DNA of 64,000 nucleotides from Desulfonema ishimotonii. Lineage in GTDB: Bacteria > Desulfobacterota > Desulfobacteria > Desulfobacterales > Desulfococcaceae. The DNA lies in contig NZ_BEXT01000001.1 of assembly GCF_003851005.1 (NCBI RefSeq), positions 6,246,996 to 6,310,995 on the forward strand, given 5' to 3'. A program made the translations under genes and the position numbers. Under the pieces are notes generated by a model, which made no database searches, was not told where the DNA came from, and saw only the letters and a program-made list of their open reading frames with translations. Below are positions 1 to 61,527 of this stretch, one piece after another; positions within the stretch are counted from its first letter, which is position 1; each line of letters begins with the position of its first letter.

Positions 1-1329
1 ATCACGTTCCTGTACGATTACATGGGCCGCCGGGTGCGAAAGCAGGTTTACAGCGGAACGCCGGGCAGTTGGAACGCATTGCCGGATGAAACCCGCGTGT
101 TTGTGTATGACGGGTGGAACCTGATCCGGGAGACGGTCACCGGAGCTGCCAGCGGTGAGACGTATTATGTGTGGGGCCTTGATCTCAGCCAGAGCACGCA
201 GGGTGCGGGCGGCATCGGCGGGCTGCTGTGCAGCGTGTCCGGCGGAGAGGTGCGTCAATACACATACGACGCCAACGGCAACGTGGGCCAGCTTGTGAAC
301 GAAGAGGGCGGGATTGTTGCGCATTATGAATACGATGCTTTTGGGAACCTGACGACCGGTTATGGCGGTGCTGTCGGGGGGAATGCGTTTCGGTTCAGTA
401 CGAAGTATTTTGATGGGGAGAGTGGGTTGTATTATTATGGGTATCGGTATTATTTGGCTGAGTTGGGGCGGTGGTTGAGTTGTGATCCGATTGGGGAATT
501 TATAGGAGGTCAGAATTTGACGGTGATGGTATGGAATAATCTTGTAAACCTGTTTGATATTTTGGGGTTGTGTGATTTTGAGAGAGAATCCTGGGAAATT
601 AAAAAAAAATGGGTACAAGAATCCTCTAATGAATTAGAATTTATCTCAAGACAAATTTCAAATTCTGAAGATGAGTTATGGGAATACCGAAAACTTCTTG
701 AAACAATAATAGATCCTAATGAAAGATTAGAAGCAGAAAAGCGAATGAAAGCATATGTATATGTAGCTCAAGCAAATTTACAAAAACATAAATTAAAAAA
801 GACTGAAATAGAACACCGCCTAAAAGGGGAAATTTTTGATGCTAAAAGAGCTTTTGAAAAATATGCTAACTGTATGGGAAAAAATGGTAATGTTGATTAT
901 ATATATTGTTGTTGTCCCAGTGGAGAATGGAAAATAGGAGGTTTTGGAGGAGGGGCTGGATTTATTGGAGGTTTTGAAATTAATAAATTTTGGGCAAGTT
1001 GCCGGGGCAAAGAGAAAATGAAGGCATCGTTTTGGTCAATTACATTTAAATTTGGTGCTATTGCACATATTGATGGCGGAGTTCAAGTAGGCGAAGTGAT
1101 ATATGCCAAAAATGTTGCAGACTTAAAAGGATGGGCTCTTGGAGACACATTTTCCGGCGGGATAGGTATTTGGGGAGCAGGAATAACACGAGAAAAAGGT
1201 TTAAGTGGTACTCCTATAGGTACTTCAATAAGTGGCGGCCCTGGATGGACTCATCCAGAATTTGGTATTGAAGCTGCCAAGACTGCTACTTATACATTTC
1301 TATTGGGTGTGGATGGATGTAGAAAGTAG
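1..1329 (+). CDS. Rhs/YD-repeat family protein, 3' end only (5' partial). YD repeats, the Rhs core-end motif (..YRYYLAELGRWLSCDPIGEFIGG) and an AT-rich C-terminal polymorphic toxin domain of unknown type.
   Basis: The reading frame is open from base 1 (ITFLYDYMGRRVRK...). YD-repeat motifs YDANGNVGQLV and YEYDAFGNL are followed by the DPxG junction. The downstream ~790 bp (540-1329) drops to roughly 30% GC and encodes Gly-zipper-like GGFGGGAGFIGG and GGIGIWGAGI motifs plus a CCC triplet. Confidence 0.8.
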   Translation: MTFLYDYMGRRVRKQVYSGTPGSWNALPDETRVFVYDGWNLIRETVTGAASGETYYVWGLDLSQSTQGAGGIGGLLCSVSGGEVRQYTYDANGNVGQLVNEEGGIVAHYEYDAFGNLTTGYGGAVGGNAFRFSTKYFDGESGLYYYGYRYYLAELGRWLSCDPIGEFIGGQNLTVMVWNNLVNLFDILGLCDFERESWEIKKKWVQESSNELEFISRQISNSEDELWEYRKLLETIIDPNERLEAEKRMKAYVYVAQANLQKHKLKKTEIEHRLKGEIFDAKRAFEKYANCMGKNGNVDYIYCCCPSGEWKIGGFGGGAGFIGGFEINKFWASCRGKEKMKASFWSITFKFGAIAHIDGGVQVGEVIYAKNVADLKGWALGDTFSGGIGIWGAGITREKGLSGTPIGTSISGGPGWTHPEFGIEAAKTATYTFLLGVDGCRK

Positions 1330-1464
1330 ATATATTTTAAGGGATAGCTGAATCAATTGAGATATATCATTGCTGTTTGTTACTTCTTAAATTCTAAACA
1401 AGATATTGGAATTTTATAAAAATTCAATTCGCACCTTTAACTGAAACGATGTATTACATCACAG

Positions 1465-1785
1465 TTGAAAATTTTCGGAGATAACGGTATGTTTATTCTT
1501 TCTATAATTTTTCTTATTATTGCTATAGCATGCGGCCTTGCAATACACTTTCTTAAATGGGAGGTATACTATAAGGTTTTGTATTTAAAAAAGGCACCAC
1601 CAAAAAAATGGTTAAGCAGATTTTATCATTTTAGTTACTGGAAATATATCGGTTCAATAGCTGAAACGAATGAAGGAAGACATTTACGTCCTTTAGTCAA
1701 TTTAAGTTGGATACTAACTTATATAGGATTAGTCTCCATGATTCTATACGCTATATTTGGCGGGTTGTGGTGGGCATATAGTTGA
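1465..1785 (+). CDS. Small multi-pass membrane protein; candidate cognate immunity protein for the Rhs toxin tip.
   Basis: 106-aa ORF with 2-3 hydrophobic helices. It lies in the same AT-rich block immediately 3' of the Rhs C-terminal domain, the typical toxin-immunity arrangement. The start could instead be the internal Met at 1489. Confidence 0.45.
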   Translation: MKIFGDNGMFILSIIFLIIAIACGLAIHFLKWEVYYKVLYLKKAPPKKWLSRFYHFSYWKYIGSIAETNEGRHLRPLVNLSWILTYIGLVSMILYAIFGGLWWAYS

Positions 1786-1811
1786 CTTTTCTAATAGCAA
1801 CATCCAGCAAT

Positions 1812-1912
1812 TAGGGTGCGTTAGCGAAGCGTAACGCACCGGAACAAGGATTGAAGATTTTTCTTTAATTGTCGCAGCAAGTAGGGTGCGTTAGCAAAGC
1901 GTAACGCACCGG
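1812..1912. repeat. Two tandem copies of a hairpin unit GGTGCGTTAGCGAAGCGTAACGCACCGGAA (9-bp stem, 7-nt loop).
   Basis: Perfect inverted repeats GGTGCGTTA / TAACGCACC at about 1815-1840 and about 1878-1903, directly after the immunity-like gene. No T-tract follows, so this is not a classic rho-independent terminator. Confidence 0.6.
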
Positions 1913-2575
1913 AAAAAAGGCTTACAGGGATTCTCCGTTCCGGTTTTGTACGGCGGCTGAAGATTTTTCCTTTAACTGCCGCAGATGAACGGGCGAACCG
2001 GGAATCGGAACCGCCCTTCCGCCCTGCAAAGACGCGGTCTGCAAAAACAAAAACCCCGGCCACGGAGCCGGGCAAAGAAACCGATTGACAGCACAGGGCG
2101 GCCCCCTGTAAGAAAAGAGAGGTATTCAGAAAATGAACAAGGCCATTCGGAGCTTCAGACCTCCGAATGACCTCTCTGCTCATTAACCCGACGGGTACAT
2201 CGTCAGGGCAAACGACTAAACAAAAACATTTAACACCTTTCTGATAGTCAGCCAGCCGGAAAAAGTCAAGTCCGGTTCCCGCCCTGCGCCGTACCCTCAC
2301 TTCCCACGGAGGTACGTTTACAAATGCAAGCTCCTGTTTCCCCAGCCAGAATCGTCGAAGCCCCTGTCTCACAGAAAAATTCGGAAAATCCGGAAAATTC
2401 CGCCCCGTCCCGCCCGGACGGACAAAAACCCGTCTCCCGGTCCCACACCGGACCCATGCACCCGGCCTGTGATATGCTGAAAAACGTCCGGTTCGCCGGT
2501 AACCTGATTCCGCACTCCTTCCACAGACACATCAGACGCGAAAGCGGCACTACCGATTTCGAGGGGGTGGGAATC

Positions 2576-9594: not shown

Positions 9595-9889
9595 CTGAAC
9601 TCCCTGATTCCGCCTTTCCGGGGAGCGCCGGATCAATTCTGCTTGACACCCTGTGATCTGTTTCCTACACTTCCGCCAGATACCGTTCGGGGTGGCCGGA
9701 AAGACCGGCCTGAGATGATACCCGCCGAACCTGATCCGGGTCATGCCGGCGCAGGGAAACAGAGAAGGGCCGCATACAAAGCAGCCCCGTGGCGTATCAC
9801 TGACGCCAGGCCGTTCCCCTGTGGAAACGGCTTTTTTTGTCAGGAAATTTTATGAGTGGGCCGTCAATTAAGTTTCCTGACATAAAACC

Positions 9890-25007: not shown

Positions 25008-26035
25008 TTATTCCGCCTCGTCAATCCTGTTGACGCCCTCCATCAGCAGCCACATGAAATCCCCGATCGGCTCCTGATCCCTGTGCGTCTCGCACTGGCC
25101 GTGCATGAACTTAAACCGTCCCCGGTTTTCCCTGAGAATCTGAAAAAAGGCGTCCCTGTCTGTCAGTTTTCTGTATCGGGCGTGGATAATCTCCCCGTCT
25201 CTGAAACAGACCCGGGCCGTCCCCTCTCTCAGCTCCAGAACCAGAACGCCGGTTTTAAGGTTGCTGTTGAGGGTCTGGAAAAGCTCTGACGGGGGCATTT
25301 CGCTCAGCCGGCCGATCATGCCCGATGAAAACTCCTCAGCCCTGGCGAGGTTGATATTGGTCAGCCGACGGGTCAGAAGCCGGGTGAAATACATCTGGAG
25401 GGCGGCATACTTATTGAGCATCTGCCTGAAATCCCTGGCGCTGATATATAAAATGCCGGACGGTTTCACAGCCCGGACATCCGCCCCGGTGGGATCTCCG
25501 CTGAGCAGGCTCATCTCGCCGAAAACCTCCCCCGGCTTTAAGAGGGCAATGCGGAGCCGGTCATTCCCCAGCACCTCCACCTTTCCCGAAGCGACGATGT
25601 AGAAGTTCCGGCCATACTCCCCCGCCGGATAATCATCTCCCCGGCATCGTATTTTTTCAGCCGGACCAGCCGGACCACCTCCCCAACCTGATCCCCTTCC
25701 AGGCTGCGGAAGAACTCAAATCTGTTCAGCAGCCCGGTGATGGTTGCCAGCTCCGCATCCGACTTCCTGGGCGGCGGCAGGGTAAAAGAGAGATCGCGCC
25801 GATATTCGAGCCGGACCCGTCCGGTACAGCCGCTGCAACGGAACTGCCCTTTGGAGCCGAGCCCCGGCGTTCCGAAAAGATCGGTGATATCTTTGACCAG
25901 GATCAGGCAGACCGCCTTGTCCGGGGGCATCAGGAGGGCGGTGCCGCATACGTTGAACTCATCGCCCAGCTTGTACATCGGGCAATTGTTTTCCTCTGTG
26001 ATGTCGATAATGGTATCCGGAAAATTCATTGGCAT
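25008..26035 (-). pseudogene. Paralog of the downstream 26067-27134 gene (Cys-rich N-domain + cNMP-binding + DUF4388-like C-domain), split by a -1 frameshift in a G5/C5 run at about 25618-25623.
   Basis: The two track ORFs (25538-26035 and 25008-25580) align end-to-end with the intact paralog (..EMIIRRG | EYGRNFYIVASGKVEVLGND..). Adding one G restores the frame. Confidence 0.6.
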
Positions 26036-26066: not shown

Positions 26067-27134
26067 TTATGTAACATGGTCCTCATCCATTCTTCTGATC
26101 CCCTCCATTAAAAGCCACATAAATTCGCCCATCTCCGGGGCACCGGCCTCTTCGGGCGACAGGTTCGGGCTGAACCGGAACCGCCCCTCTTTCGCTTTCA
26201 GAATTTCAAAAAAGGCATCGGGTCCGTTTTTTCCTTTATATTCGGCCCATACCGGCTCACCCTGCCTGAAACAGACCCGCGCGTTGCCCCCGGACAGTGC
26301 CAGGTCGGCCCCGCCGGTCTTCTGGTTGACGTTCAGGGTCTGAAACAGCTCGGAGGGCGGGACTTCGGAGAGCTTCCCGGCCATCCCGGAGGAGAAATCT
26401 TCAGACCGGGCCATGTTGGTGGCCGCGAGCCGCTGGGCCAGCAACCGGGCAAAGTACATCTGGAGGGTGGGATACCGGCTCAGAATTTTCCCGAAATCCC
26501 GTCCCTTCATGTATAACAGGCGGACCGGTTCGACAACCTTTATTGTCGCGCCCACCGGCTCCCCGCTGATAAGACTCATCTCTCCGAACACCTCCCCCCT
26601 GCCCAGCCAGGCAATGCGCATGGCATCATCGCCGATCACCTCCACCTTTCCGGCGGCGATGATGAAGAGGTTGACCCCCGGCGTGCCCTTTTTGATGATC
26701 ACCGTTCCCCTGGGAAGCTGGCTGTATTTCAGATATCGGCCCAGGTCTCTGAGCTGCCCGTCGTCCAGCCCCTGAAAGATGGGGAAACGGGCCAGCACGT
26801 TAATAATCGCCCTGATTTTTTCGGCCTTTTCCCCGTCCGCCGGCAGGGCTGCGGTATCGGGGGGCAGCCGGTATTCCATGCGGATCGACCCTGTGCAGTC
26901 TGTCACCGGGCCGCTGCAGTTAAATTGGTACACCGGACAATTGTTCTGCCGGATGTCCTCTGTATAGCGCCCCGTGGTCAGGGCTGTTTTAATATCTTCC
27001 GCAAGGACCATGCAGGCCGGTTTGCCGGGGGGAAGGGTCAGGACGCGGCCTGACAGCCTGAACGCATCGCCCGCTTTATATATGGGGCAGTGGTTATCCT
27101 TAATGATTTCCAGTATCGTGTCCGGCATATTCAT
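26067..27134 (-). CDS. Signal-transduction protein: N-terminal Cys-rich domain (HCPIY...NNCPVYQFNCSG...DCTG), cyclic-nucleotide-binding domain and a C-terminal DUF4388-like domain.
   Basis: cNMP-binding signature GEVFGEMSLISGEPVGATIKVVEPVRLLYM; C-terminal PPSELFQTLNVNQKTG...VCFRQGEPVWAEY. RBS GAAGGAG lies 6 nt before the ATG at 27134. Confidence 0.7.
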   Translation of the reverse strand: MNMPDTILEIIKDNHCPIYKAGDAFRLSGRVLTLPPGKPACMVLAEDIKTALTTGRYTEDIRQNNCPVYQFNCSGPVTDCTGSIRMEYRLPPDTAALPADGEKAEKIRAIINVLARFPIFQGLDDGQLRDLGRYLKYSQLPRGTVIIKKGTPGVNLFIIAAGKVEVIGDDAMRIAWLGRGEVFGEMSLISGEPVGATIKVVEPVRLLYMKGRDFGKILSRYPTLQMYFARLLAQRLAATNMARSEDFSSGMAGKLSEVPPSELFQTLNVNQKTGGADLALSGGNARVCFRQGEPVWAEYKGKNGPDAFFEILKAKEGRFRFSPNLSPEEAGAPEMGEFMWLLMEGIRRMDEDHVT

Positions 27135-27353
27135 TGTTTTCTCCTTCACATTCGGAAAGTTCCTGAACCTTAGCCGTTTCTGATGTCACCGTCACGGGGA
27201 TATGCACGGCAATGGTATTCCGGTGAACCGGGTAAGATGCGGCATTTTCGGAAGGTTTATAATACATTTTACCCGTCTGAATCCACGAAAGATTGTACAA
27301 AATTCGGGGACCGGGGTCAAACAGATACACATCGGCGCGTCCCCGGCGGTCCG

Positions 27354-27929
27354 GCTAGTCTATGCACACAAGTTATCTCGTTCCCAGGCTCTGCCTCAAT
27401 GCCATTAAGTTAAGCGGATTTTTTTGGGAAAATCCGCTTTTCTCAGAACCGGGGGCCGTCGCGGCAAATCCCGCCGCCTCGCCGGGGAATGAATTCCCCG
27501 GCTGAATCCCTGAAACCCGCTTAAAAGCTGTTTTTTTAATTTTTTTCGGAGTGCAAAAGTTAAGTCCCGAAAGGGACGATCTTTTGCAAAATTTGCGAAA
27601 AACCGGCCTCCGGCCTTAATTTTCGCACTCCGTTTCTGAGTCGCCGGTATTTTTAAAGCAGCTTCTAAGGCGGGTTGGCCGGGGATGCCAACAGGCTTCA
27701 GCCTGTTTTGCGGTTTCAGCCCCGGAATTCATTCCGGGGTGTGGCGGCAGATTCCGCTGTTCCCTAACTTAATGGCATTGAGGCTCTGCCTGGGAATGCG
27801 GTCCCGGAGGCTCTGCCTCCTTCCACGCGAGGCGAAGCCTCGTAACGAGATTCCGGGTATCTTACCCCGCTTTCCCGACATTCCCGAAAGCTGGTCCGTC
27901 TGTATCTGACTTATGTGCATAGACTAGTG
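27354..27929. mobile_element. ~575-bp non-coding nested palindromic element (MITE-like or structured RNA). Outer TIRs CTAGTCTATGCACACAAGT / CTTATGTGCATAGACTAG, inner 30-bp inverted repeats and several internal perfect palindromes.
   Basis: Outer inverted repeats at 27354-27372 and 27911-27929. Inner IR TTCCCAGGCTCTGCCTCAATGCCATTAAGTTA (27381-27412) against TAACTTAATGGCATTGAGGCTCTGCCTGGGAA (27765-27796). Paired palindromes CCGGGGAATGAATTCCCCGG and CCCCGGAATTCATTCCGGGG, and CGGAGTGCAAAAG against TTTTCGCACTCCG. There is no credible ORF. Confidence 0.55.
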
Positions 27930-28077
27930 CTTTGTCATCGCTTAATTTTAGAATCAGCGGATTTCAATTTGTACCGGTGTCAGCAGGTTGCATTATGCCC
28001 AACCCTGATTTTTAGCTTTGACTATGCACTAGGGCGGTCCGGGGGGGAAAAACAGGATATGGCTGGTGCCGAAAAGG

Positions 28078-28106
28078 TTGACCTGATGTGATAAATCCTG
28101 CATTAT
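28078..28106 (+). promoter_or_regulatory. Candidate sigma-70 promoter (TTGACC -17 nt- CATTAT) for the 28172 gene.
   Basis: -35 at 28078-28083 and -10 at 28101-28106. Sequence match only. Confidence 0.25.
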
Positions 28107-28171
28107 CTGAAGACAGGGAGACCGGGCTGCCGCCCCATCGGAAAAACATTTGACGCCGCGATCATAACGAT

Positions 28172-28450
28172 ATGGATATCAGAGCCGCCATTCTACTCTT
28201 TCTTATCTTTCATTTCGCCTACTATGATTTTTTTCACCTGTCGGCGGAAATAAAACTTGCGCTGATCCTGACGGTCCTTTTTTCCGAATCTGTCTACCGG
28301 CTGCTGGCCCAGAAACCGCCCCCGCCGCCCCCGCCGAGTATAGATGATAGCCAGAAGCTTCTGGAAACCATATTGGACAGCAGAGCGCCGATCGAGGACA
28401 AAAAAAAGGCGGGCGTTTTGCTGGATCAGATCGACAGGCTGGAGAAGTAA
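28172..28450 (+). CDS. Small membrane protein with a poly-proline tract (PPPPPPP).
   Basis: 92 aa with an N-terminal hydrophobic helix, immediately upstream of the multi-rubredoxin gene. Confidence 0.4.
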   Translation: MDIRAAILLFLIFHFAYYDFFHLSAEIKLALILTVLFSESVYRLLAQKPPPPPPPSIDDSQKLLETILDSRAPIEDKKKAGVLLDQIDRLEK

Positions 28451-28640: not shown

Positions 28641-28673
28641 TTTTAACCCCACAAAATGTTCAGGAGAATATGT

Positions 28674-29873
28674 ATGCGGAAATGGAAATGTACGGTGTGT
28701 GGCTACATCCACACCGGAAACGAACCGCCGGAAAAATGCCCGGTCTGCGGCGCGGATAAAAGCCTCTTTGAGCCGGTTGGCGAAAGCGCTGAGGCAGCGG
28801 CGCAGGCCGGGACTGAAACCGCTGCAAAGTGGCGATGCACGGTGTGCGGCTACATCCACACCGGAAACGAACCGCCGGAAAAATGCCCGGTCTGCGGCGC
28901 GGATAAAAGCCTCTTTGAGCCGGTTGGCGAAAGCGCTGAGGCAGCGGCGCAGGCCGGGACTGAAACCGCTGCAAAGTGGCGATGCACAGTGTGCGGCTAC
29001 ATCCACACCGGAAACGAACCGCCGGAAAAATGCCCGGTCTGCGGCGCGGATAAAAGCCTCTTTGAGCCGGTTGGCGAAAGCGCTGAGGCAGCGGCGCAGG
29101 CCGGGACTGAAACCGCTGCAAAGTGGCGCTGCACAGTGTGCGGCTACATCCACACCGGCGACGAGCCGCCGGACAAATGCCCGGTCTGCGGCGCGGATAA
29201 AAGCCTCTTTGAGCCGATGGCTGAGACTGCCGCTGAAACAGAATCGCCTGCCGGAACCGAATCCGTCGCAAAGTGGCGCTGCACGGTGTGCGGCTACATC
29301 CACACCGGCGACGAGCCGCCGAAAAAATGCCCGGTCTGCGGCGCGGACAAAAGCCTCTTCGAGGCGCTCTCCGAAACCGCCGCGCCTGAAAAGTCCGCAG
29401 ACGCGGAAACCGCACCCCGTTCCTCCCGTGGCCGGATATATGACATGCTCATTGAGCAGATGCTGAAGCATCACGCCCATCCCGTCTCGGTCCATATTCC
29501 CAACGGGGTGATCCCCATGAACGTTCTGTTTATTCTCATGGCCCTGCTGTTTCACATGGGCAGCCTTGAACTGGCCGCCTTCTGCAACACGGTCTTTGTT
29601 GTGCTGACCATGCCGTTTATCGTGTTCTCCGGGTATATCGAGTGGCAGAAGCGGTATGGCGGGCATCTGACGAACATTTTCGTTATCAAGATTCTCTGTG
29701 CCACGGTGGTGGCGGCGTCGGCTGTCGGGATCATGATCTGGTGGATCATTGATCCGAACGTGGCGGACGCCACCTCGCCCAACCGGTGGCTTTTTTTTCT
29801 GGTCAACCTGATGATGCTGGGGGCCGCAGCCGTTGCCGGGTTTATCGGCGGAAGATTTGTTTTCAAGGATTAA
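28674..29873 (+). CDS. Protein with five tandem rubredoxin domains (W[RK][10 protein letters not shown][ND]EPP[EDK][13 protein letters not shown]) joined by Ala/Glu/Thr-rich linkers and fused to a C-terminal ~4-TM membrane domain.
   Basis: Five CxxCG...CPxCG rubredoxin knuckle pairs. The C-terminal 150 aa are hydrophobic with conserved His ([11 protein letters not shown]). RBS AGGAG lies 6 nt before the ATG at 28674. Confidence 0.8.
28683..29417 (+). repeat. Tandem 147-bp coding repeats (5 units), one per rubredoxin domain. Units 2 and 3 differ by a single nucleotide.
   Basis: Unit boundaries are at about 28830, 28977, 29124 and 29271. Units 1-3 are near-identical; units 4-5 have diverged (GDEPPDKC and GDEPPKKC). 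Confidence 0.8.
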
Positions 29874-30286
29874 TTCCACGTTGTCAGATTAACTAAATCA
29901 GAGGGCAGGCCCCTGTGCCTGCCCTCCGGTTCCCGGAGCCGCCGTTTCCCGCCAATCGGGCGTTTCACAGTCGAAAATCCCAGAAAAGCCTTATGTGGCA
30001 AGGGTTTGCATAATTTTTTGTGGAAAAACGTTCGGATGAAATAAATGTTTTTATTTTGAAAATCAGAGTATTGAATCATAATCATGAAAATGTGTTAAGA
30101 TTGCATTCGAATGCGATTTTGTCCGCTCATATTTTTCGGACCTGAAGTATAAAAAGTGGTAATCTGACCTTCACCCCATATTAAATTTGATCGAAACTGA
30201 TGGGTTTCAAAGACAGTTCAGGCTAAGGATCTTCGGAACCGGCAGGCACCCGGAGCAGATTTCCGAACATAAAAAAAGGAGAACCG

Positions 30287-30898
30287 ATGCTTGATTTTTT
30301 TCAGGAGGCCATATCGCCCTTAAACCTTCCATTTACGATTTTACTGGGCCTGATGATCCTCTACTGGCTGGTCGTCATCATGGGCGCTGCCGATGCGGAC
30401 TGGATGCCCGATCTCGACCTGGATGCCGATGACGGTGGGGGACTCCTCGCCTCTTTTTTTCAGTTCCTCAGCCTTGGCGACGTGCCGGTCACGGTGGTCG
30501 TAAGCGTCATGATTTTCAGCGCCTGGTGTTTTTCCATGCTGGCCAACCACTTTCTGAACCCCGGCGGTTCGATTTTTATCGGCACCACCCTCCTCTTTAT
30601 CAATATGCTGCTGGGGCTTTTTGCCACAGCCCTTTTTACCCGCGTCATGCTCAGGATTTTCGGACCGCTGCACGGCGAGGACACGGAGGATCAGCAAATC
30701 CTCTATCGGGTCGGCACGGTTATCACCAGCCGGGTGGATGCGGACTTCGGTCAGGTGGAGATCGAAACCAAAGGCGCGCCCATTACCGTCAACGCCCGCG
30801 CTGTGGATGACAGAATTTTTACGAAAGGGGAGAAGGTGCTGATATTTGACGAAGATGAGGAGAAAGGGATCTTCTTTGTGGATAAATACGAGGCATAA
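30287..30898 (+). CDS. NfeD-like / YqiJ-family (DUF1449) inner-membrane protein with a C-terminal OB-fold; partner of the downstream flotillin.
   Basis: N-terminal TM segments, an acidic loop (DLDLDADDGGG) and C-terminal GTVITSRVDADFGQVEIETKGAPITVNARAV...GEKVLIF resembling the NfeD beta-barrel. Preceded by an AT-rich region with a GCATTCGAATGC palindrome (30103-30114). Confidence 0.65.
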   Translation: MLDFFQEAISPLNLPFTILLGLMILYWLVVIMGAADADWMPDLDLDADDGGGLLASFFQFLSLGDVPVTVVVSVMIFSAWCFSMLANHFLNPGGSIFIGTTLLFINMLLGLFATALFTRVMLRIFGPLHGEDTEDQQILYRVGTVITSRVDADFGQVEIETKGAPITVNARAVDDRIFTKGEKVLIFDEDEEKGIFFVDKYEA

Positions 30899-30947
30899 CC
30901 CGGCGTCTTTCCCGAAAAACGGACATAAAAAATAACGGAGGTGACCG

Positions 30948-33053
30948 ATGGAGCTTCTCGCAGGACTGGGGTTTACAGGAATTGTTGTCTTATTTGTCAT
31001 CGGCCTCGGCTTTATTACGCTGCTGGCCAAATTTTACCGCAAGGTCGAACAGGGACACGCCCTGGTGCGCAACGGCATCGGCGGCACAAAGGTGAGCTTT
31101 TCCGGCACAGTGGTCGTTCCGATTCTTCACAAGGCTGAAGAGATGGATATCTCCGTCAAGCGGGTTATCATCGACCGCCACGGCAGCGAGGGGCTGATCT
31201 GCCGGGACAATATGCGGGCGGATATCAAGGTCGTCTTTTTCGTCCGGGTCAACAAGACCTCCCAGGATGTCCTCAAGGTGGCCCAGGCCGTCGGCTGCGA
31301 ACGGGCCTCCCATCCCAAGGCGCTTCAGGAGCTGTTTGAGGCCAAGTTTTCCGAAGCCCTCAAGACCGTGGGCAAGCAGTTTGAGTTTGTGGAACTGTAT
31401 AACTCCCGCGAACAGTTCAAGGAAGAGATGCTCAAGGTGATCGGCACTGACCTGAACGGCTTTGTCATGGACGATGCTGCCATCGACTATCTGGAACAGA
31501 CGCCCCTTGAGATGCTCAACGCCGACAATATTCTCGATTCACAGGGCATCAAAAAGATCACCGAACTCACGTCCGACCAGAAAATCCTGGCCAATAAAAT
31601 TGACCGGGACCGGGAAAAAACCATTACCCGCCAGGATGTGGAGGCCAAAGAGGCGGTGCTGGAGCTGAACCGCCAGCTGGCCGAGGCTGAAAGCCGTCAG
31701 AAACGGGAAGTGGAGATCATTCAGGCCCGCGAGACGGCTGAAACCGTCAAGGTTCAGCAGGAGGAGCGTCTCAAGGCCGAATCTGCGCGGATTTCCTCGG
31801 AAGAGGAGATTCAGGTGGCCGAAGAGAACAAGGATCGTCAGATCATCGTGGCCCGCAAGAACAAGGAACGCACCGATGCCATTGAATCCGAGCGCCTGGA
31901 AAAAGACCGGATGATCGAGGCCACCGAGCGGGAGCGGATTGTGGCCCTGACCCAGATCGAAAAGAACAAGGCCATCGAGGTGGAGCGGAAGAACATTCAG
32001 GATGTGATCCGCGAACGGGTCAAGGTGGAAAAGACGGTAGTGGAGGAACAGCAGCGCATCAAAGACACCGAGGCCTTTGCCGAGGCCGATCGGGAAAAAC
32101 GGGTCGCCATCACCCAGGCGGAAAAGTCGGCAGAGGAGACAGAGGTCGTAAAGGTCAAGGGGGCCGAGGCCGCCCGGCAGGTGGCGGCCCTGAAGGCCGA
32201 AGAGGATATGCTCCGCACGGTAAAGGATGCCGAAGCCGCCCAGAAGGCATCGGATTTCAAGGCCCGGCAGGCCGAGATTGAGGCCGGGGCGTTTTTCCAC
32301 AAGGCGGAAAAGGAGGCGGCCGCCAAGAAGATGCTGGCCGAGGCCGATGCGGCGGAAAAGGCAGCCCAGGGCATGAGCGATGTCCAGGTGATGGAGGCGC
32401 GGGCGGCGGCCATTGAAAAAGAGGGCGCGGCCCAGTCCAAGGTCATGGATCTGAAATATCAGGCCGAATCCGGCGGGATTGAGAAAAAGGGCACGGCCGA
32501 GGCCAAGGTACAGTCCCTGAAATTCCAGGCGGAGGCCAAGGGCATTGAGCAGAAGGCCAACGCCATGAAACTGCTGGACGGCGTGGGACGCGAACATGAG
32601 GAGTTCAAGCTGCGGCTCCATAAGGAAAAGGATGTGGAAATTGCCGAAATCCGGAACCGGGGGGAAGTGGCCCGGTATCAGGCCGACATTCTGGCCCAGG
32701 CCCTCAGATCGGCCAAAATCGATATTGTGGGCGGCGAGGCCACCTTCTTTGACCGGATCGTCAACGCCATCAGCACCGGCAAGGCCGTGGACCGGTATGT
32801 GGATAACAGCAAAACCCTGACCGACGTGAAAGAGACCTTTTTCAATTCCGACCCGGAGTATTTTCAGTCCCAGCTGAAGCACTTTTTCAAGCAGTTCGGC
32901 ATCACGTCGGAAGATGTGAAAAACCTCACGGTGTCGGCGGTGCTGGGGCAACTTGTCTCCCTGGCGGACAAACCCGAGGACCGGAGTGCCCTGTACGAGC
33001 TTTTGTCCATGGCCGAACGGTCCGGCATGGCCAAAAAGGTGCTGGGGAAATAG
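30948..33053 (+). CDS. Flotillin-family SPFH/band-7 protein (YqiK/FloT-like) with an N-terminal TM helix and a long Glu/Ala/Lys-rich coiled coil.
   Basis: SPFH core (GHALVRNGIGGTKVSF...VRVNKTSQDVLKVAQAVG) followed by ~300 aa of heptad-like EA/KA-rich sequence; 701 aa. Confidence 0.85.
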   Translation: MELLAGLGFTGIVVLFVIGLGFITLLAKFYRKVEQGHALVRNGIGGTKVSFSGTVVVPILHKAEEMDISVKRVIIDRHGSEGLICRDNMRADIKVVFFVRVNKTSQDVLKVAQAVGCERASHPKALQELFEAKFSEALKTVGKQFEFVELYNSREQFKEEMLKVIGTDLNGFVMDDAAIDYLEQTPLEMLNADNILDSQGIKKITELTSDQKILANKIDRDREKTITRQDVEAKEAVLELNRQLAEAESRQKREVEIIQARETAETVKVQQEERLKAESARISSEEEIQVAEENKDRQIIVARKNKERTDAIESERLEKDRMIEATERERIVALTQIEKNKAIEVERKNIQDVIRERVKVEKTVVEEQQRIKDTEAFAEADREKRVAITQAEKSAEETEVVKVKGAEAARQVAALKAEEDMLRTVKDAEAAQKASDFKARQAEIEAGAFFHKAEKEAAAKKMLAEADAAEKAAQGMSDVQVMEARAAAIEKEGAAQSKVMDLKYQAESGGIEKKGTAEAKVQSLKFQAEAKGIEQKANAMKLLDGVGREHEEFKLRLHKEKDVEIAEIRNRGEVARYQADILAQALRSAKIDIVGGEATFFDRIVNAISTGKAVDRYVDNSKTLTDVKETFFNSDPEYFQSQLKHFFKQFGITSEDVKNLTVSAVLGQLVSLADKPEDRSALYELLSMAERSGMAKKVLGK

Positions 33054-56118: not shown

Positions 56119-58986
56119 TTACGCCAGCTCCGGTTTGATTTCCTCAAGATAGTAACACTCAATGATGTCGCCGACCTTGATATCGTTATACCGCTCAATG
56201 CCGATACCGCACTCGTAGCCGCTCTGCACCTCTTTCACATCGTCCTTGAACCGTCTCAGGGAGGCGATATTCCCCTCGTGGATCACCACGCCGTCGCGGA
56301 CCAGGCGGATGCGTTTCCCCCGCTGAATGTTTCCGTCCGTGACATAGCAGCCGGCAATTGTCCCCACCTTGGGTACATGAAAGACCTCCCGGGTCTCGGC
56401 ACGGCCCAGAACCCGTTCCTCAAAGGTGGACTCCATCATGCCGAGGATGGCGTCTTTCACATCCTTGATGACGTTGTAAATGACGTTGTAGAAGCGCATA
56501 TCCACATGCTCTTCATTGGCAAACGTCTGCACTTTGGGTGTGGGACGGACGTTAAAGCCGATAATGATGGCATTGGACACGGCGGCCAGCGAAATATCGG
56601 ATTCACTCACAGTGCCGGTCGCTGCGTGGATGATGTTAATGGAGACCTCGTCGTTGGACAGCTTGACCAGAGACTCGCTCATGGCCTCAAGTGAGCCGTG
56701 AACATCGGCCTTGAGAATGACGTTCAGATCCTTGACCTCACCCTCCTGCATCCGCTCAAAGAGCTTTTCCAGGCTGATGCGGCTGGTCTTGGCCAGGCCG
56801 ATGGAGCGCTGCTTCTGGAGCCGGTGCTCACTGACCTGCTTGGCGCTCTTGTCGTCATCCAGGACGATCATCTCGTCACCGGCGTTGGGCACACCCGAAA
56901 GCCCCAGCACCTCCACCGGCTCTGACGGACCTGCCGATTCGACCTGCTGGCCCCGGTCATTGAGCATGGCGCGGATTTTTCCATGATGAACCCCGCATAC
57001 AACCGGATCTCCGGCACGGAGCGTTCCCTCCTGAACCAGGATGGTGGCCACAGGGCCGCGGCCGGCGTCCAGTTTGGATTCCACCACATAGCCCTTGGCA
57101 TGTTTATCCGGATTGGCTTTGAGTTCCAGCACCTCGGCCTGGAGCAGTATCATCTCCAGCAGCGCATCAATCCCCTGATTCTGTTTGGCGGACACCTTGA
57201 CAAAAATGGTATCGCCCCCCCAGTCTTCGGGCATCAGGTTATGCTCGGAAAGCTCCCGTGTCACCCGGTCGGGATCGGCGCCGTCCTTGTCCATCTTGTT
57301 GATGGCCACAATAATGGGAACATTGGCGGCCTTGGAGTGGTTGATGGCCTCAATGGTCTGGGGCATCACCCCGTCATCGGCAGCGACAACGAGAACAACG
57401 ATGTCGGTCACGATGGCCCCGCGGGCGCGCATGGCCGTAAAGGCCTCATGTCCGGGGGTATCCAGAAACGTCACCTGTCCGCCCGATGTCTTGACACTGT
57501 AGGCACCGATATGCTGCGTAATCCCGCCCGCCTCAATTTCGGTAATCCGGGTCTTGCGGATCACGTCCAGCAGGGAGGTTTTCCCGTGATCCACATGGCC
57601 CATAATGGTGACCACAGGGGATCTGCCGACCATAGCTCCGGGGGTGCTTTCCTCTTCGATATGCAGAAAGGTATCTTCTTCAAAGGCGGCTTTTTCCACC
57701 TCGTACCCGAACTCCGATGCGACCAGGACCGCCGTATCAAAGTCGATGGTCTGGTTGACGGTTACCATCACGCCCAGCATCATCAGCTTCTTGATCATCT
57801 CGCTGGCCTTGATCCCCATCCGTTTGGCCAGATCCGCCAGGACAATCGTATCATCAATCTTCACCCGGCGTTTGATGGCCTTGGGGGTCGTGATCTGGGT
57901 CTTCTGGGCTTTCACCGCCCTGGCCTTGCCCCGTTTTCCCCGTTTCCCCTTGCCATACAGTGCGGCACCTTCCACGACCTCCTTACGCCTGAAGGGGGTT
58001 TTCTTTTTGCCCCGGCGGGTCTCTTCCCCGGCGGACGGGGTGACCTCCCCTTTTTTCTTATGGAATTTTTTCTTCCGGTCTCTGACCGGCAACTCCCCGG
58101 CTGTTGTTTTCTCATTGCCACCCGCAGCCTGCTCCGTACTTCTCGCAGGCTTACTCTTCGCAGGCGAACTCTTTTCTGACGGGGGCGCGGCAACCTTCGG
58201 CGGCAGTTTGATAATCCGTGCGGGCGTATCTTTTTTATTCGCCCGCTTCTTTTTCTTTCTTTTTTCCGGCTTTTTATCCGCTTTCTCAGGTGTCTCGGGC
58301 TGATCGGTCGAGGTTTCTGCGGCGCCAGACGGTTCGGCCGTTGAAGCGTCCGCATCCCGCTGCCTCCGCGTTGTTGTCTTCTCACTGTTCATAGGCTTTT
58401 CTCCAACCTCGGCAGGCCCGGCCGGTTCCTGTTCAACCGCCGACACAGCAGGTGCTTCGATGGGATCGGATTCCGCTTTGGGCGGGGTATCCGAAGGGGT
58501 TTGAATTATTTTGGCCGGGGCGTCTTTCGCCTTTTTGGCCTTTTTCGCCTTTTTCTTTCCGGTTCCCGGCTTCTCATCAGAGGAGGGTATTACAGCCTGA
58601 TCGTTATCCGGTTCAGGCGTTCCGGCGTCGGCAGATTCTTTTTCCGGTTCAGGGGGGGCGTCCTGTTCTATTTCTGTTGTATCGGAACGGTCTTCTGTCT
58701 CCGGTGCCGCGTCCGTATCAGCAGTCATCTCTTCAGGCGCTGTGTCTTCGGTTTCCGCTGAAGTCCGTTTTTTTCGTTTTCGGATAACGGTTGGCTTTAC
58801 GCGGGTAACCTCCGCTGCCCCTTTCTTTTTTCCAAGAATATTCGCCTTGATGTTCGCTACAGTCTCGTCATCCAGAGAACTCATGTGGCTGCTTACGGCA
58901 ATATTCATATCGCTCATTTTATCCAGGAGCGCCTTATTTTTCATGTTCAGAACTCTGGCAAGCTCATATACTCTGATCTTTGCCAT
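56119..58986 (-). CDS. infB: Translation initiation factor IF-2.
   Basis: Lys/Ala/Glu/Pro-rich N-terminal region, G domain ([24 protein letters not shown]) and the C-terminal beta-barrel domains; 955 aa. Confidence 0.9.
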
Positions 58987-59053
58987 TCATACCCCCCTAA
59001 AACTCTGTTTTGTGCGACAGGCGGCATATCATCCGACGCCTGCCTCTATTCAT

Positions 59054-61251: not shown

Positions 61252-61451
61252 TTGCCTTTACATCCACGTCTCAGACAATAAAAAAACGGGCTGCCGCCCG
61301 TTTTATGCCAATGTAGACCTTTTATTTTTAGTGGATGTCGAAAAAATTAATTGTTCATAATCTGCGCATAAGAAAAAAACATGTCCGAACCACAATCCCC
61401 TGATAAAAGGCCTACCTCTTATCTGTAACCAAAAGGCGGACTTATCAAAAT

Positions 61452-61527
61452 GGAGCGGGCAACGAGATTCGAACTCGCGACACCAAGCTTGGGAAGCTTG
61501 TACTCTACCAGCTGAGCTATGCCCGCT
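61452..61527 (-). tRNA. tRNA-Gly (anticodon CCC), 76 nt with an encoded CCA.
   Basis: Reverse complement reads GCGGGCATAGCTCAGCTGGTAGAGTACAAGCTTCCCAAGCTTGGTGTCGCGAGTTCGAATCTCGTTGCCCGCTCCA. It has a 7-bp acceptor stem, a D-arm, anticodon loop TTCCCAA, T-loop TTCGAAT and discriminator U. Confidence 0.9.

What the first reader, a model, noticed from the sequence alone, without database searches (positions are those of the whole stretch)
27354..27929. ~580-bp ORF-less nested palindrome with terminal inverted repeats
The element has outer TIRs (CTAGTCTATGCACA.. / ..TGTGCATAGACTAG), a second 30-bp inverted-repeat pair (TTCCCAGGCTCTGCCTCAATGCCATTAAGTTA / its complement) and mirrored internal palindromes (CCGGGGAATGAATTCCCCGG vs CCCCGGAATTCATTCCGGGG; CGGAGTGCAAAAG vs TTTTCGCACTCCG). 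Together they would let the whole region fold as one long imperfect hairpin. It sits between two divergently arranged genes and contains no credible ORF. A degenerate third copy of the terminal motif lies at about 28018-28034. It could be a large MITE, a structured ncRNA, or a replication or recombination site.
Basis: seen in the sequence. Interest (0 to 1): 0.6.

Follow-up and report, generated by a model that had tools for sequence, protein, structure and literature searches.

The report
Nest of miniature transposons (MITEs)
The 580-bp "nested palindrome" is real, but it is a stack of small defective transposons inserted one inside another between two genes of Desulfonema ishimotonii, which is ordinary mobile-DNA debris rather than a new RNA or a replication site.

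Summary
Window 27355-27927 is a strong imperfect palindrome: the DNA fold has z = -16 against shuffles, there is no credible ORF, and it lies between divergent genes.

It is not one element. Terminal inverted repeats (TIRs) plus flush target-site duplications (TSDs) split it into nested non-autonomous transposons.
- **A** (27355-27926 plus G28032): 19-bp Tn5/IS50-like ends, TSD GGCGGTCCGG.
- **C** (27397-27780): E. coli IS4-like ends CAATGCCATTAAGTTAAG, 11-bp TSD AGGCTCTGCCT. It sits on the dyad of a hairpin inside A.
- **B** (27927-28029): TA duplication, inserted into A's terminal CTAG.
- **D** (27488-27733): a candidate fourth layer with CCGGGG flanks, supported only by internal evidence.

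The ends of A and C each occur at more than 120 places in public genomes or metagenomes, with TSD modes of 9 bp (A) and 11-12 bp (C). Full-length copies encode IS4-family transposases. Family C is the published "hupL MITE" of Candidatus Thiomargarita nelsonii, whose parent IS the authors could not find.

The palindrome arises because each insertion landed on the symmetry axis of an older hairpin. Rfam matches, DnaA boxes and a GC-skew switch are all absent. Novelty is low, and the copy number in the host genome could not be tested.

The parts
27345..27354 (.). Left copy of the target-site duplication of element A (GGCGGTCCGG)
   Evidence: It is identical to 28033-28042 (D20) and abuts A's left end. 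Family A makes 9-10 bp duplications.
27355..27926 (.). Element A: a Tn5/IS50-like (IS4-family) MITE. Its last base is displaced to 28032. It is 178 bp once C and one C duplication are removed.
   Evidence: The 19-bp ends are CTAGTCTATGCACACAAGT (27355-27373) and its complement (27909-27926 plus 28032), matching 18 of 19. The same ends gave more than 120 exact hits in metagenomes. Among 61 non-redundant pairs, the TSD mode is 9 bp. Copies of about 1.5 kb encode an IS4-family transposase (NF033590, 275 bits) that is homologous to Tn5 transposase.
27379..27396 (.). Left half of the REP-like hairpin inside A (CGTTCCCAGGC-TCT-GCCTGGGAA) that C split. The right half is 27792-27803.
   Evidence: Removing C and one duplication reconstructs the hairpin. 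Family C also hit the same kind of hairpin in L033, L039, L101 and L010.
27386..27396 (.). Left copy of the target-site duplication of element C (AGGCTCTGCCT)
   Evidence: It is identical to 27781-27791 in direct orientation (D4).
27397..27780 (.). Element C: an IS4-like MITE of the 'hupL MITE' family, 384 bp (132 bp without D)
   Evidence: The TIRs are CAATGCCATTAAGTTAAG (27397-27414) and CCTAACTTAATGGCATTG (27763-27780), matching 17 of 18. There are 96 non-redundant TIR pairs in other genomes, with 11-12 bp TSDs. The E. coli IS4 ends match at 15 of 19 positions. The full-length copy L093 and Flood's family-325 both encode IS4-family transposases.
27482..27487 (.). Left copy of the candidate duplication of element D (CCGGGG)
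   Evidence: It is identical to 27734-27739 and lies flush with a 19-nt inverted repeat.
27488..27733 (.). Candidate element D: a 246-bp foldback element inside C. This layer is inferred.
   Evidence: The TIR is AATGAATTCCCCGGCTGAA / TTCAGCCCCGGAATTCATT, with 6-bp flanking direct repeats. Removing D leaves C at 132 bp, within the family's usual 113-146 bp. No other copy was found in the loci or in viral contigs.
27547..27593 (-). Central hairpin unit, left copy (CGGAGTGCAAAAG...CTTTTGCAAAA). It is a diverged inverted relative of the right unit.
   Evidence: (I3). It has the same architecture as the right unit but different stems.
27594..27632 (+). Central 39-nt REP-like hairpin unit TGCGAAAAACCGGCCTCCGGCCTTAATTTTCGCACTCCG
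   Evidence: It is 92-97% identical to three copies in Desulfobacteraceae MAG S08.Bin136 (L010 141-179, L010 6681-6720, L087 7557-7594), each with different flanks.
27734..27739 (.). Right copy of the candidate D duplication (CCGGGG)
27781..27791 (.). Right copy of the C target-site duplication (AGGCTCTGCCT)
27925..27926 (.). Left TA of the 2-bp duplication made by element B, lying within A's terminal CTAG
   Evidence: Removing B and one TA restores A's complete end directly next to A's duplication.
27927..28029 (.). Element B: a 103-bp MITE flanked by a TA duplication (IS630/Tc1-like behaviour)
   Evidence: The TIRs are GTGCTTTGTCATCGCTTAATTT and the reverse complement GTGCATAGTCAAAGCTAAAAAT. 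Homologous copies are L076 1625-1732 (77% over 108 nt, E 2e-16) and L010 1719-1965, and both are flanked by TA.
28030..28032 (.). Right TA of B's duplication (28030-28031), plus G28032, the displaced last base of A's right end
28033..28042 (.). Right copy of A's target-site duplication (GGCGGTCCGG)
   Evidence: The reconstructed empty site GTCCCC-GGCGGTCCGG-GGGGGA fits family A's CCC...GGG target profile.

Best explanation
The region is a transposon nest: several non-autonomous DNA transposons (MITEs) stacked in one intergenic spot of the Desulfonema ishimotonii chromosome.

Proposed order of events:
1. A 178-bp MITE with Tn5/IS50-like 19-bp ends (A) inserted into a small GC hairpin (CCCCGG-CGGT-CCGGGG) and duplicated GGCGGTCCGG.
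2. A 132-bp MITE with E. coli IS4-like ends (C, the 'hupL MITE' family) inserted on the dyad of a REP-like hairpin inside A (TTCCCAGGC-TCT-GCCTGGGAA) and duplicated AGGCTCTGCCT.
3. Probably, a 246-bp foldback element (D) inserted in the central hairpin loop of C and duplicated CCGGGG.
4. A 103-bp TA-duplicating MITE (B) inserted into the terminal CTAG of A, pushing A's right-hand duplication 105 bp away.

The window encodes no transposase. Movement must have been driven in trans by IS4-family (A, C) and presumably IS630-like (B) transposases encoded elsewhere. That step is inferred.

The concentric palindrome is a by-product. These transposases favour two-fold symmetric targets, and hairpins inside older MITEs are such targets. 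Each newcomer therefore lands on the old symmetry axis and adds its own inverted ends around it.

What is shown: the TIRs, the flush TSDs, the family membership, and the parent ISs found in other genomes. What is inferred: the order of events, the trans-mobilisation, layer D, and the dyad-targeting rule as the cause of the nesting.
For: **Exact flush duplications in the window.**
- A: 10 of 10 identical once B is removed.
- C: 11 of 11.
- B: TA on both sides.
- D: 6 of 6.

**Family C.** The 20-mer GCCTCAATGCCATTAAGTTA hit more than 120 genome stretches: Thiomargarita, Parabeggiatoa, Thiotrichaceae, Marithrix, Desulfobacterales MAGs, Methylomonas, Legionella and others.
- There are 99 head-to-head pairs, mostly 100-200 bp.
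- 54 of 96 non-redundant pairs carry an exact 10-13 bp TSD. In shuffled flank pairings scored at up to one mismatch, 90% show none.
- The E. coli K-12 IS4 ends TAATGCCGATCAGTTAAGG match at 15 of 19 positions and carry a 12-bp TSD.
- L093 1278-2562 has these TIRs and an 11-bp TSD, and encodes an IS4-family transposase (NF033592, E 6.5e-32; PF01609).
- Flood et al. 2016 (PMC4853749) show the hupL MITE with the same ends and an 11-bp flank. Their family-325 consensus (1847 bp, same TIRs) encodes a transposase 47-52% identical to L093's.

**Family A.** There were more than 120 exact hits in metagenomes. Among 61 non-redundant pairs the TSD mode is 9 bp, and the target profile is CCC-N-GGG. Copies of about 1.5 kb encode NF033590 transposases at 275 bits against a cutoff of 160. 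They match Tn5 transposase structures at E 4e-21.

**Family B.** Homologues in L076 and L010 have TA flanks.

**Size and position.** Without D, C is 132 bp, the typical family size. Promoter-like sites for both flanking genes lie outside the stack.
Against: - Copy number and cognate transposases in D. ishimotonii itself could not be checked. The window holds only this one copy of each end and no transposase. The 120 closest of 1542 relatives of the L159 A-type transposase (E <= 1e-40) include none labelled Desulfonema, although most carry no source name.
- Layer D rests on a 6-bp repeat (roughly p = 0.01-0.02 after allowing for about 50 candidate boundaries) and a size argument. No second copy was found.
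- The innermost pair of hairpin units is not explained as an insertion event.
- Only one other nested A/C case (L106) was seen among about 240 loci. The dyad-targeting rule is therefore supported by target profiles and the events in this window, not by many independent nests.
- L093's NF033592 score (110.9) is just under the curated cutoff of 115, because an N-run masks its N-terminus.
Confidence: 0.88

Rival explanations
1. It is one large foldback MITE: a single element of about 575 bp with one pair of terminal repeats and a long internal hairpin, moved as one unit.
For: The outer 19-bp ends are near-perfect, and the whole region folds as one hairpin. Once assembled, the composite could in principle have moved as a unit, because A's ends are intact.
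Against: The internal pairs have their own flush direct duplications, 11 bp and 6 bp, which a single element would not carry. The inner ends belong to a different, independently widespread family with its own parent IS. Family A members are usually 79-315 bp.
Confidence: 0.05
2. The inner palindrome (27415-27762) arose by inverted duplication of one arm followed by divergence, with local hairpins preserved by selection or hairpin-templated repair. It did not arise by further nested insertions.
For: The arms align over about 170 nt at roughly 70-75% identity, with local hairpins kept in both arms. No second copy of D was found.
Against: The CCGGGG direct repeats flush with a 19-nt TIR explain the 'compensatory' CCGGGG/CCCCGG swap without invoking selection. 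The right central unit is 92-97% identical to copies in another genome but much less similar to its partner in the left arm. That argues for separate family members rather than an old duplication. C minus D has the canonical family size.
Confidence: 0.2
3. It is a structured non-coding RNA, or a convergent/divergent pair of such RNAs, and the conserved hairpins act at the RNA level.
For: There are many short GC hairpins with small loops. Hairpins are retained in both arms despite sequence differences. One terminator-like hairpin is present.
Against: No Rfam family reaches threshold, and the best hits are noise. The conserved blocks are transposon ends with TSDs, and their flanks and interiors differ from copy to copy. 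Conservation is at the DNA termini, not across a folded core.
Confidence: 0.03
4. It is a replication origin, an invertible promoter switch, or another site-specific recombination site.
For: It is a large palindrome in a 1-kb intergenic region between divergent genes. Inverted repeats flanking about 535 bp resemble an inverton.
Against: There are no DnaA boxes within 27000-28100 and no GC-skew turning point there. No recombinase, invertase or replication gene appears among the ten neighbouring ORFs scanned with Pfam. A palindromic segment would read nearly the same after inversion. The inverted repeats are explained as transposon ends.
Confidence: 0.02

Closest known systems
'hupL MITE' family of Candidatus Thiomargarita nelsonii (Flood et al. 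2016, PMC4853749)
   Same: The terminal repeat is identical (CAATGCCATTAAGTTAAG / CTTAACTTAATGGCATTG). The flanking direct repeat has the same length: ATCCAAACAGT in their supplement and AGGCTCTGCCT here. Both are small, hairpin-rich, non-coding and multicopy. Element C is a member of this family.
   Different: The host is a sulfate reducer (Desulfobacterota), not a gammaproteobacterial sulfur oxidiser. The interior sequence is unrelated and longer (384 bp, with a probable nested insert). The authors reported no parental IS. Here the ends are matched to E. coli IS4 and to full-length IS4-family elements, including their own RepeatModeler family-325.
IS4 of Escherichia coli K-12 (insG; IS4 family, IS4 group)
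   Same: The ends match at 15 of 19 positions, and both make a long duplication (12 bp in K-12; 11-12 bp in family C). The transposase of the full-length relatives carries DDE_Tnp_1 and hits NCBIfam IS4-family models.
   Different: The transposases are only about 25% identical over 208 aa. The window copy has no transposase at all.
IS50/Tn5 (IS4 family)
   Same: Element A has 19-bp ends. Its family makes 9-bp duplications at symmetric targets. Its full-length relatives encode a transposase that matches Tn5 transposase structures (E 4e-21). From memory, the Tn5 outside end CTGACTCTTATACACAAGT shares the terminal CT and the inner ACACAAGT with CTAGTCTATGCACACAAGT.
   Different: A is a 178-bp non-autonomous derivative. 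The duplication here reads as 10 identical bases (9 plus 1 coincidental, or a true 10). The parent ISs seen are from metagenomes and Bacteroidota, not from this host.
IS630/Tc1-mariner-derived MITEs (TA duplication)
   Same: Element B is about 100 bp with 22-nt imperfect TIRs, and TA flanks all three copies seen. It inserted into CTAG. From memory, CTAG is the preferred IS630 target.
   Different: No autonomous partner was identified, so family assignment rests on the TA duplication alone.
Mosaic repeat clusters such as E. coli BIMEs/REPs and Neisseria NIMEs with dRS3 repeats (from memory)
   Same: The intergenic DNA is built from short GC-rich hairpin modules (for example TTCCC-N-GGGAA type). 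These modules recur in many arrangements and serve as insertion targets for other elements.
   Different: No RAYT or other dedicated enzyme was examined here. Sequence homology to those families was not tested. The resemblance is architectural only.

Membership tests
MITE (non-autonomous DNA transposon), applied to elements A, B and C | Small size (under about 600 bp) with no transposase gene | tested here: met
   A is 178 bp, C is 132-384 bp and B is 103 bp. The internal ORFs are at most 74 aa with no significant Pfam hit. tblastn with both transposases finds nothing in the window.
MITE (non-autonomous DNA transposon), applied to elements A, B and C | Terminal inverted repeats | tested here: met
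   A matches 18 of 19, C 17 of 18 and B 17 of 22.
MITE (non-autonomous DNA transposon), applied to elements A, B and C | Target-site duplication flush with the ends | tested here: met
   A: GGCGGTCCGG on both sides. C: AGGCTCTGCCT on both sides. B: TA on both sides. Family-wide TSD modes are 9 bp (A) and 11-12 bp (C), against about 90% without a TSD in shuffled flank pairings scored at up to one mismatch.
MITE (non-autonomous DNA transposon), applied to elements A, B and C | Multiple dispersed copies in the same genome | not testable with these tools
   The 64-kb window holds only one copy of each. Multicopy status is shown only for other genomes, for example dozens of copies in Thiotrichaceae S06.Bin195.
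MITE (non-autonomous DNA transposon), applied to elements A, B and C | An autonomous IS with the same ends exists | tested here: met
   C: L093 1278-2562 and Flood's family-325. A: L134, L159, L180 and L219, about 1.5 kb each. B: not found.
IS4 family, IS4-like group (element C) | Ends resembling IS4, a long (11-13 bp) duplication, and a DDE_Tnp_1 transposase in full-length members | tested here: met
   The ends match E. coli IS4 at 15 of 19 positions, and IS4 has a 12-bp TSD in K-12. Family C's TSD is 11-12 bp. PF01609 hits at E 3.5e-10. NF033592 hits at E 6.5e-32, with 110.9 bits against a cutoff of 115 on a protein truncated by an N-run.
IS4 family, IS50/Tn5-like group (element A) | 19-bp ends, a 9-bp duplication, and a Tn5-type transposase in full-length members | tested here: met
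   NF033590, 275 bits against a cutoff of 160; Tn5 transposase PDB chains, E about 4e-21.
IS630/Tc1-mariner derived MITE (element B) | TA duplication | tested here: met
   All three copies are flanked by TA. Removing B plus one TA restores A's end next to A's duplication.
IS630/Tc1-mariner derived MITE (element B) | Ends shared with an IS630-family transposase-encoding element | not tested
Structured non-coding RNA | Match to a curated RNA family, or covariation-supported structure across orthologues | tested here: not met
   There are no Rfam hits at gathering threshold, and only noise at E <= 10. The nearest protein homologue of the flanking gene is 61% identical, so no orthologous intergenic alignment could be made.
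Chromosomal replication origin | DnaA-box cluster and a GC-skew switch | tested here: not met
   None of the nine TTWTNCACA matches in the window lies in 27000-28100. Cumulative GC skew rises smoothly through 27-28 kb.
Invertible DNA switch (inverton) | Inverted repeats with an adjacent invertase or recombinase, and two orientations in reads | tested here: inconclusive
   No recombinase domain was found among the ten neighbouring ORFs scanned with Pfam, spread over 21.5-30.9 kb. Read data were not available. The repeats are fully explained as transposon ends.

The most novel reading that the evidence does not exclude
IS4-family transposases, and the small REP-like hairpin modules around them, systematically target the dyad axis of existing hairpins. 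On this reading MITE-rich genomes (Desulfonema, Beggiatoaceae) build self-reinforcing concentric palindromes. The same MITE families move between Desulfobacterota and giant sulfur-oxidising Gammaproteobacteria, and so act as markers and possibly vehicles of the cross-phylum gene exchange already proposed for these filamentous bacteria.
Probability: 0.3. Interest if true: 0.4.

Novelty: new member of a known kind. Interest (0 to 1): 0.2.

Why it matters
Mostly this is a clean-up result. It removes a candidate 'novel structured element' and shows how nested MITEs can mimic a designed long hairpin.

Three modest points go beyond that.
1. The published hupL-MITE family of Thiomargarita, for which no parent IS was found, can be tied to IS4-like elements through its ends, its duplication length and full-length copies.
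2. The same two MITE families occur in Desulfonema ishimotonii and in Beggiatoaceae. This fits, and gives DNA-level markers for, the horizontal exchange among filamentous gliding bacteria proposed by Watanabe et al. 2019 (PMC6390638).
3. Dyad-centred insertion offers a simple explanation for the concentric palindromes that repeat finders report in such genomes.

Tried and rejected
- **Rfam**, on the whole window at gathering threshold and on 27100-28300 at E <= 10: only noise at the locus.
- **tRNA/tmRNA scan:** nothing near the locus.
- **Self-BLAST and a TIR search in the window:** no second copy.
- **The look-up of encoding contigs for the flanking protein**, given as a DNA reference and as P0001: not on record, so the source genome could not be fetched.
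- **Literature search by sequence strings:** no relevant hit.
- **attC/integron idea:** rejected. The core-site order is inverted relative to attC, and the 20-bp arms pair perfectly with no extrahelical bases.
- **XerC/D dif-like idea:** rejected as a weak half-site resemblance only.
- **Promoter idea for the outer 19-mer:** dropped once paired copies with 9-bp duplications were seen.
- **L006 1902-bp pair:** it has no transposase ORF, so it is not an autonomous copy.
- **Search for a nested A/C precedent:** only L106.
- **Viral-contig scans for D's ends and the 39-nt unit:** zero hits.
- **Homologue search with an A-type transposase,** to find a Desulfonema copy: none among the top 120, most of which carry no source name.
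- **DnaA boxes:** none at the locus.
Full report
**1. What is there**

The window is from the Desulfonema ishimotonii chromosome. The flanking cNMP-binding/DUF4388 protein (26067-27134, minus strand) is 100% identical to a protein of that species on a 6.6-Mb contig.

The intergenic space between this gene and the plus-strand ORFs at 28172 and 28656 is about 1 kb.
- 27355-27373 / 27909-27927 (18 of 19 complementary)
- 27381-27412 / 27765-27796 (29 of 32)
- 27473-27524 / 27697-27748 (52 nt, 75%)
- 27547-27570 / 27609-27632 (24 nt, 83%)

As single-stranded DNA, 27340-27945 folds at -158.5 kcal/mol. Shuffles give -89.3 +/- 4.3 kcal/mol, so z = -16. The internal ORFs are at most 74 aa and have no significant Pfam match.

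**2. First clue: some of the 'palindrome' is really direct repeat**

I aligned the left arm with the reverse complement of the right arm. The mismatches in the 32-nt pair turned out to be the loop TCT, which reads the same on the plus strand on both sides. AGGCTCTGCCT is thus a direct repeat (27386-27396 and 27781-27791), sitting immediately outside CAATGCCATTAAGTTAAG…CCTAACTTAATGGCATTG. That is the signature of a transposon with an 11-bp target-site duplication, inserted into a hairpin TTCCCAGGC-TCT-GCCTGGGAA.

**3. Element C (27397-27780) belongs to a large, widespread MITE family derived from IS4-like elements**

The hits included Thiomargarita, Parabeggiatoa, a Thiotrichaceae MAG with dozens of copies, Marithrix, Desulfobacterales MAGs, Methylomonas, Legionella, Thiosymbion and others.

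In those loci the core occurs 148 times forward and 142 times reverse. It forms 99 head-to-head pairs, mostly 100-200 bp apart, with variable hairpin-rich interiors. Of 96 non-redundant pairs, 54 have an exact flush direct repeat of 10-13 bp (mode 11-12). With flanks paired at random and up to one mismatch allowed, 90% have none. The preferred target is a two-fold symmetric AGGCT-WW-AGCC.

The ends of E. coli K-12 IS4, read from the annotated element, are TAATGCCAGTCAGTTAAGC and TAATGCCGATCAGTTAAGG, with a 12-bp duplication. They match the MITE end at 15 of 19 positions.

A full-length copy in a Competibacteraceae MAG (L093 1278-2562) has the same TIRs and an 11-bp duplication with one mismatch. 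It encodes a DDE transposase that hits PF01609 and the NCBIfam IS4-family model NF033592 (E 6.5e-32). It is 25% identical to IS4 InsG.

The family is already in the literature as the 'hupL MITE' of Candidatus Thiomargarita nelsonii. That MITE was hit on 260 of 439 contigs of that genome, and the authors found no parental IS in ISfinder (PMC4853749). Their supplement shows ATCCAAACAGT|CAATGCCATTAAGTTAAG…CTTAACTTAATGGCATTG|ATCCAAACAGT. Their RepeatModeler family-325 consensus (1847 bp) starts and ends with the same TIRs. It encodes a transposase 47-52% identical to L093's. The parent IS therefore exists in that genome too.

**4. Element A (27355-27926 plus G28032) is a second IS4-family MITE, of the Tn5/IS50 type**

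The 19-mer CTASTCTATGCACACAAGT gave more than 120 exact hits in metagenome contigs. It also occurs, with 1-2 mismatches, in Thiomargarita loci fetched for family C. I found 61 non-redundant inverted pairs of 79-584 bp. Their flush duplications have a mode of 9 bp (24 pairs at 9, 12 at 10). The target profile is C-rich on the left and G-rich on the right.

Four copies of about 1.5 kb encode 400-aa proteins that score 275 bits on NF033590 (IS4-family transposase, cutoff 160). They match Tn5 transposase structures at E about 4e-21. From memory, the Tn5 outside end is CTGACTCTTATACACAAGT, which shares the terminal CT and the inner ACACAAGT with A's end.

In the window A's left end abuts GGCGGTCCGG (27345-27354). 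The same 10-mer lies at 28033-42, that is 105 bp beyond A's right end.

**5.

Positions 27927-28029 form a 103-bp element with 22-nt imperfect TIRs. It has homologues in a Desulfobacteraceae MAG: L076 1625-1732 (77% over 108 nt, E 2e-16) and L010 1719-1965. All three copies are flanked by TA.

Removing B plus one TA from the window restores A's complete right end (CTAGTCTATGCACATAAGT, 18 of 19) directly next to GGCGGTCCGG. So A inserted first, into the hairpin GTCCCC-GGCGGTCCGG-GGGGGA, which fits its family's target profile. B then inserted into the TA of A's terminal CTAG. TA duplication at CTAG is IS630-like behaviour, from memory. No autonomous partner of B was sought.

**6. The interior of C**

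A systematic search inside C for inverted ends with flush direct repeats gave one clear candidate. This is 27488-27733 (246 bp), with 19-nt ends AATGAATTCCCCGGCTGAA / TTCAGCCCCGGAATTCATT and CCGGGG on both sides.

Three things follow from it:
- It turns the apparently compensatory hairpins (CCGGGG…CCCCGG on the left, CCCCGG…CCGGGG on the right) into duplication plus TIR.
- It places the insertion in the loop of a hairpin GCCGCC…GGCGGC.
- It leaves C at 132 bp, squarely within the family's usual 113-146 bp.

No second copy of D was found in the roughly 240 fetched loci or in viral contigs, so I call D probable, not shown.

At the centre sit two inverted hairpin units. The right one (27594-27632) is a discrete 39-nt repeat, 92-97% identical to three copies with different flanks in Desulfobacteraceae MAG S08.Bin136. 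The left one is a diverged relative. They therefore look like separate members of a REP-like family rather than an old duplication.

The sizes add up: 178 (A) + 11 + 132 (C) + 6 + 246 (D) = 573 bp, which equals 27355-27927.

**7. How it works**

The palindrome is a by-product of repeated insertion at symmetry axes. All the resolvable events in the window hit the centre of a short hairpin, and the family-wide target profiles are two-fold symmetric. Each newcomer brings its own inverted ends, so the structure grows concentrically.

The window contains no transposase, so mobilisation must be in trans. Whether D. ishimotonii encodes the cognate enzymes is unknown. The homologue search with the L159 A-type transposase returned only unnamed metagenomic proteins and four named ones, all from Bacteroidota, in its top 120. 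The near-perfect TIRs and perfect duplications suggest fairly recent events; this is an inference.

The promoter-like sites for both flanking genes (27320→27292 on the minus strand, 28078-28106 on the plus strand) lie outside the stack. The likely effect is only to push the divergent promoters about 690 bp apart.

**8. Rivals**

- **A single foldback MITE** is contradicted by the internal duplications and by the independent family membership of the inner ends.
- **A structured RNA** has no Rfam support. Conservation lies at transposon termini, with interchangeable interiors.
- **An origin or recombination site** lacks DnaA boxes at the locus, a GC-skew switch and any recombinase among the ten neighbouring ORFs scanned.
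- **For the innermost layers only**, inverted duplication followed by divergence remains a live alternative.

**9. Known or new**

MITEs, nested MITEs and IS4-family parents are textbook. Family C is published, and this copy is a new member in a new host.

The minor additions are these:
- the IS4-type parentage of the hupL-MITE family;
- a second, Tn5-like MITE family that co-occurs with it (23 fetched loci carry both kinds of end);
- their presence in both Desulfonema and Beggiatoaceae, which matches the gene sharing reported for D. ishimotonii (PMC6390638).

**10. Limits**

The genome-collection and metagenome scans are exact-match, single-use, and stopped at 120 rows. The host genome outside the window could not be read, and no expression data exist here.

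**Verdict:** real feature, ordinary explanation, low novelty.

Noticed in passing
window 9678-9774 (+): TPP riboswitch at 71 bits, above the Rfam gathering score.
   Followed up: no
window 61451-61526 (-): tRNA-Gly(CCC), the only tRNA in the window.
   Followed up: no
window 28656-29873 (+): This 405-aa ORF has five near-identical tandem rubredoxin-like (RUBY_RBDX) repeats, about 49 aa each, followed by a membrane domain. The DNA repeats generate long spurious ORFs in other frames and on the opposite strand.
   Followed up: no
window 25008-26035 (-): A paralogue of the adjacent cNMP-binding/DUF4388 gene appears split into two overlapping ORFs (25538-26035 and 25008-25580). The cNMP domain is truncated at the junction. 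This may be a frameshift or pseudogene, or a sequencing error.
   Followed up: no
window 1-2000 and 58001-59000: Composition outliers. The first 2 kb have 38-44% GC with GC skew +0.2 to +0.35. The 58-59 kb bin has AT skew -0.46.
   Followed up: no
window, whole; e.g. 30019-32923: The DnaA-box-like pattern TTWTNCACA occurs 9 times against 2.3 expected, and no shuffle reached 9. Five of the matches lie in 30.0-32.9 kb, mostly inside coding sequence. None is at the palindrome.
   Followed up: no
L010 125-470 and 6660-6860; L087 7535-7960 (Desulfobacteraceae MAG S08.Bin136): There are recurrent intergenic arrays of GC hairpins with 3-nt loops (GTTCCCGGGC-TCC-GCCCGGGAAC, TGAGGC-TCT-GCCTCA, CCGGAGGC-GGA-GCCTCCGG). 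Each array is headed by the 39-nt unit TGCGAAAAACCGGCC…TTTTCGCACTCCG and bracketed by TATATGAAAGT-like repeats. Family C MITEs are inserted into these hairpins. They look like a REP/BIME-type system with no enzyme identified.
   Followed up: partly
L243-L257 and L242 (IMG/VR viral contigs): The family A 19-mer end occurs in 15 viral contigs, several from human-microbiome samples. The family C end occurs in one. Phage-borne copies could be a route for spread between phyla.
   Followed up: no
PMC4853749 main text versus its supplementary file 2: The paper states that no RepeatModeler consensus shares motifs with the hupL MITE. Yet its families 176 and 325 both carry the hupL-MITE terminal repeat, and family 325 is a full-length IS4-family element.
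   Followed up: yes
L006 437-487: A 51-bp family C member consists of little more than two back-to-back terminal repeats. It may be the minimal MITE into which host-specific hairpin repeats later insert.
   Followed up: no
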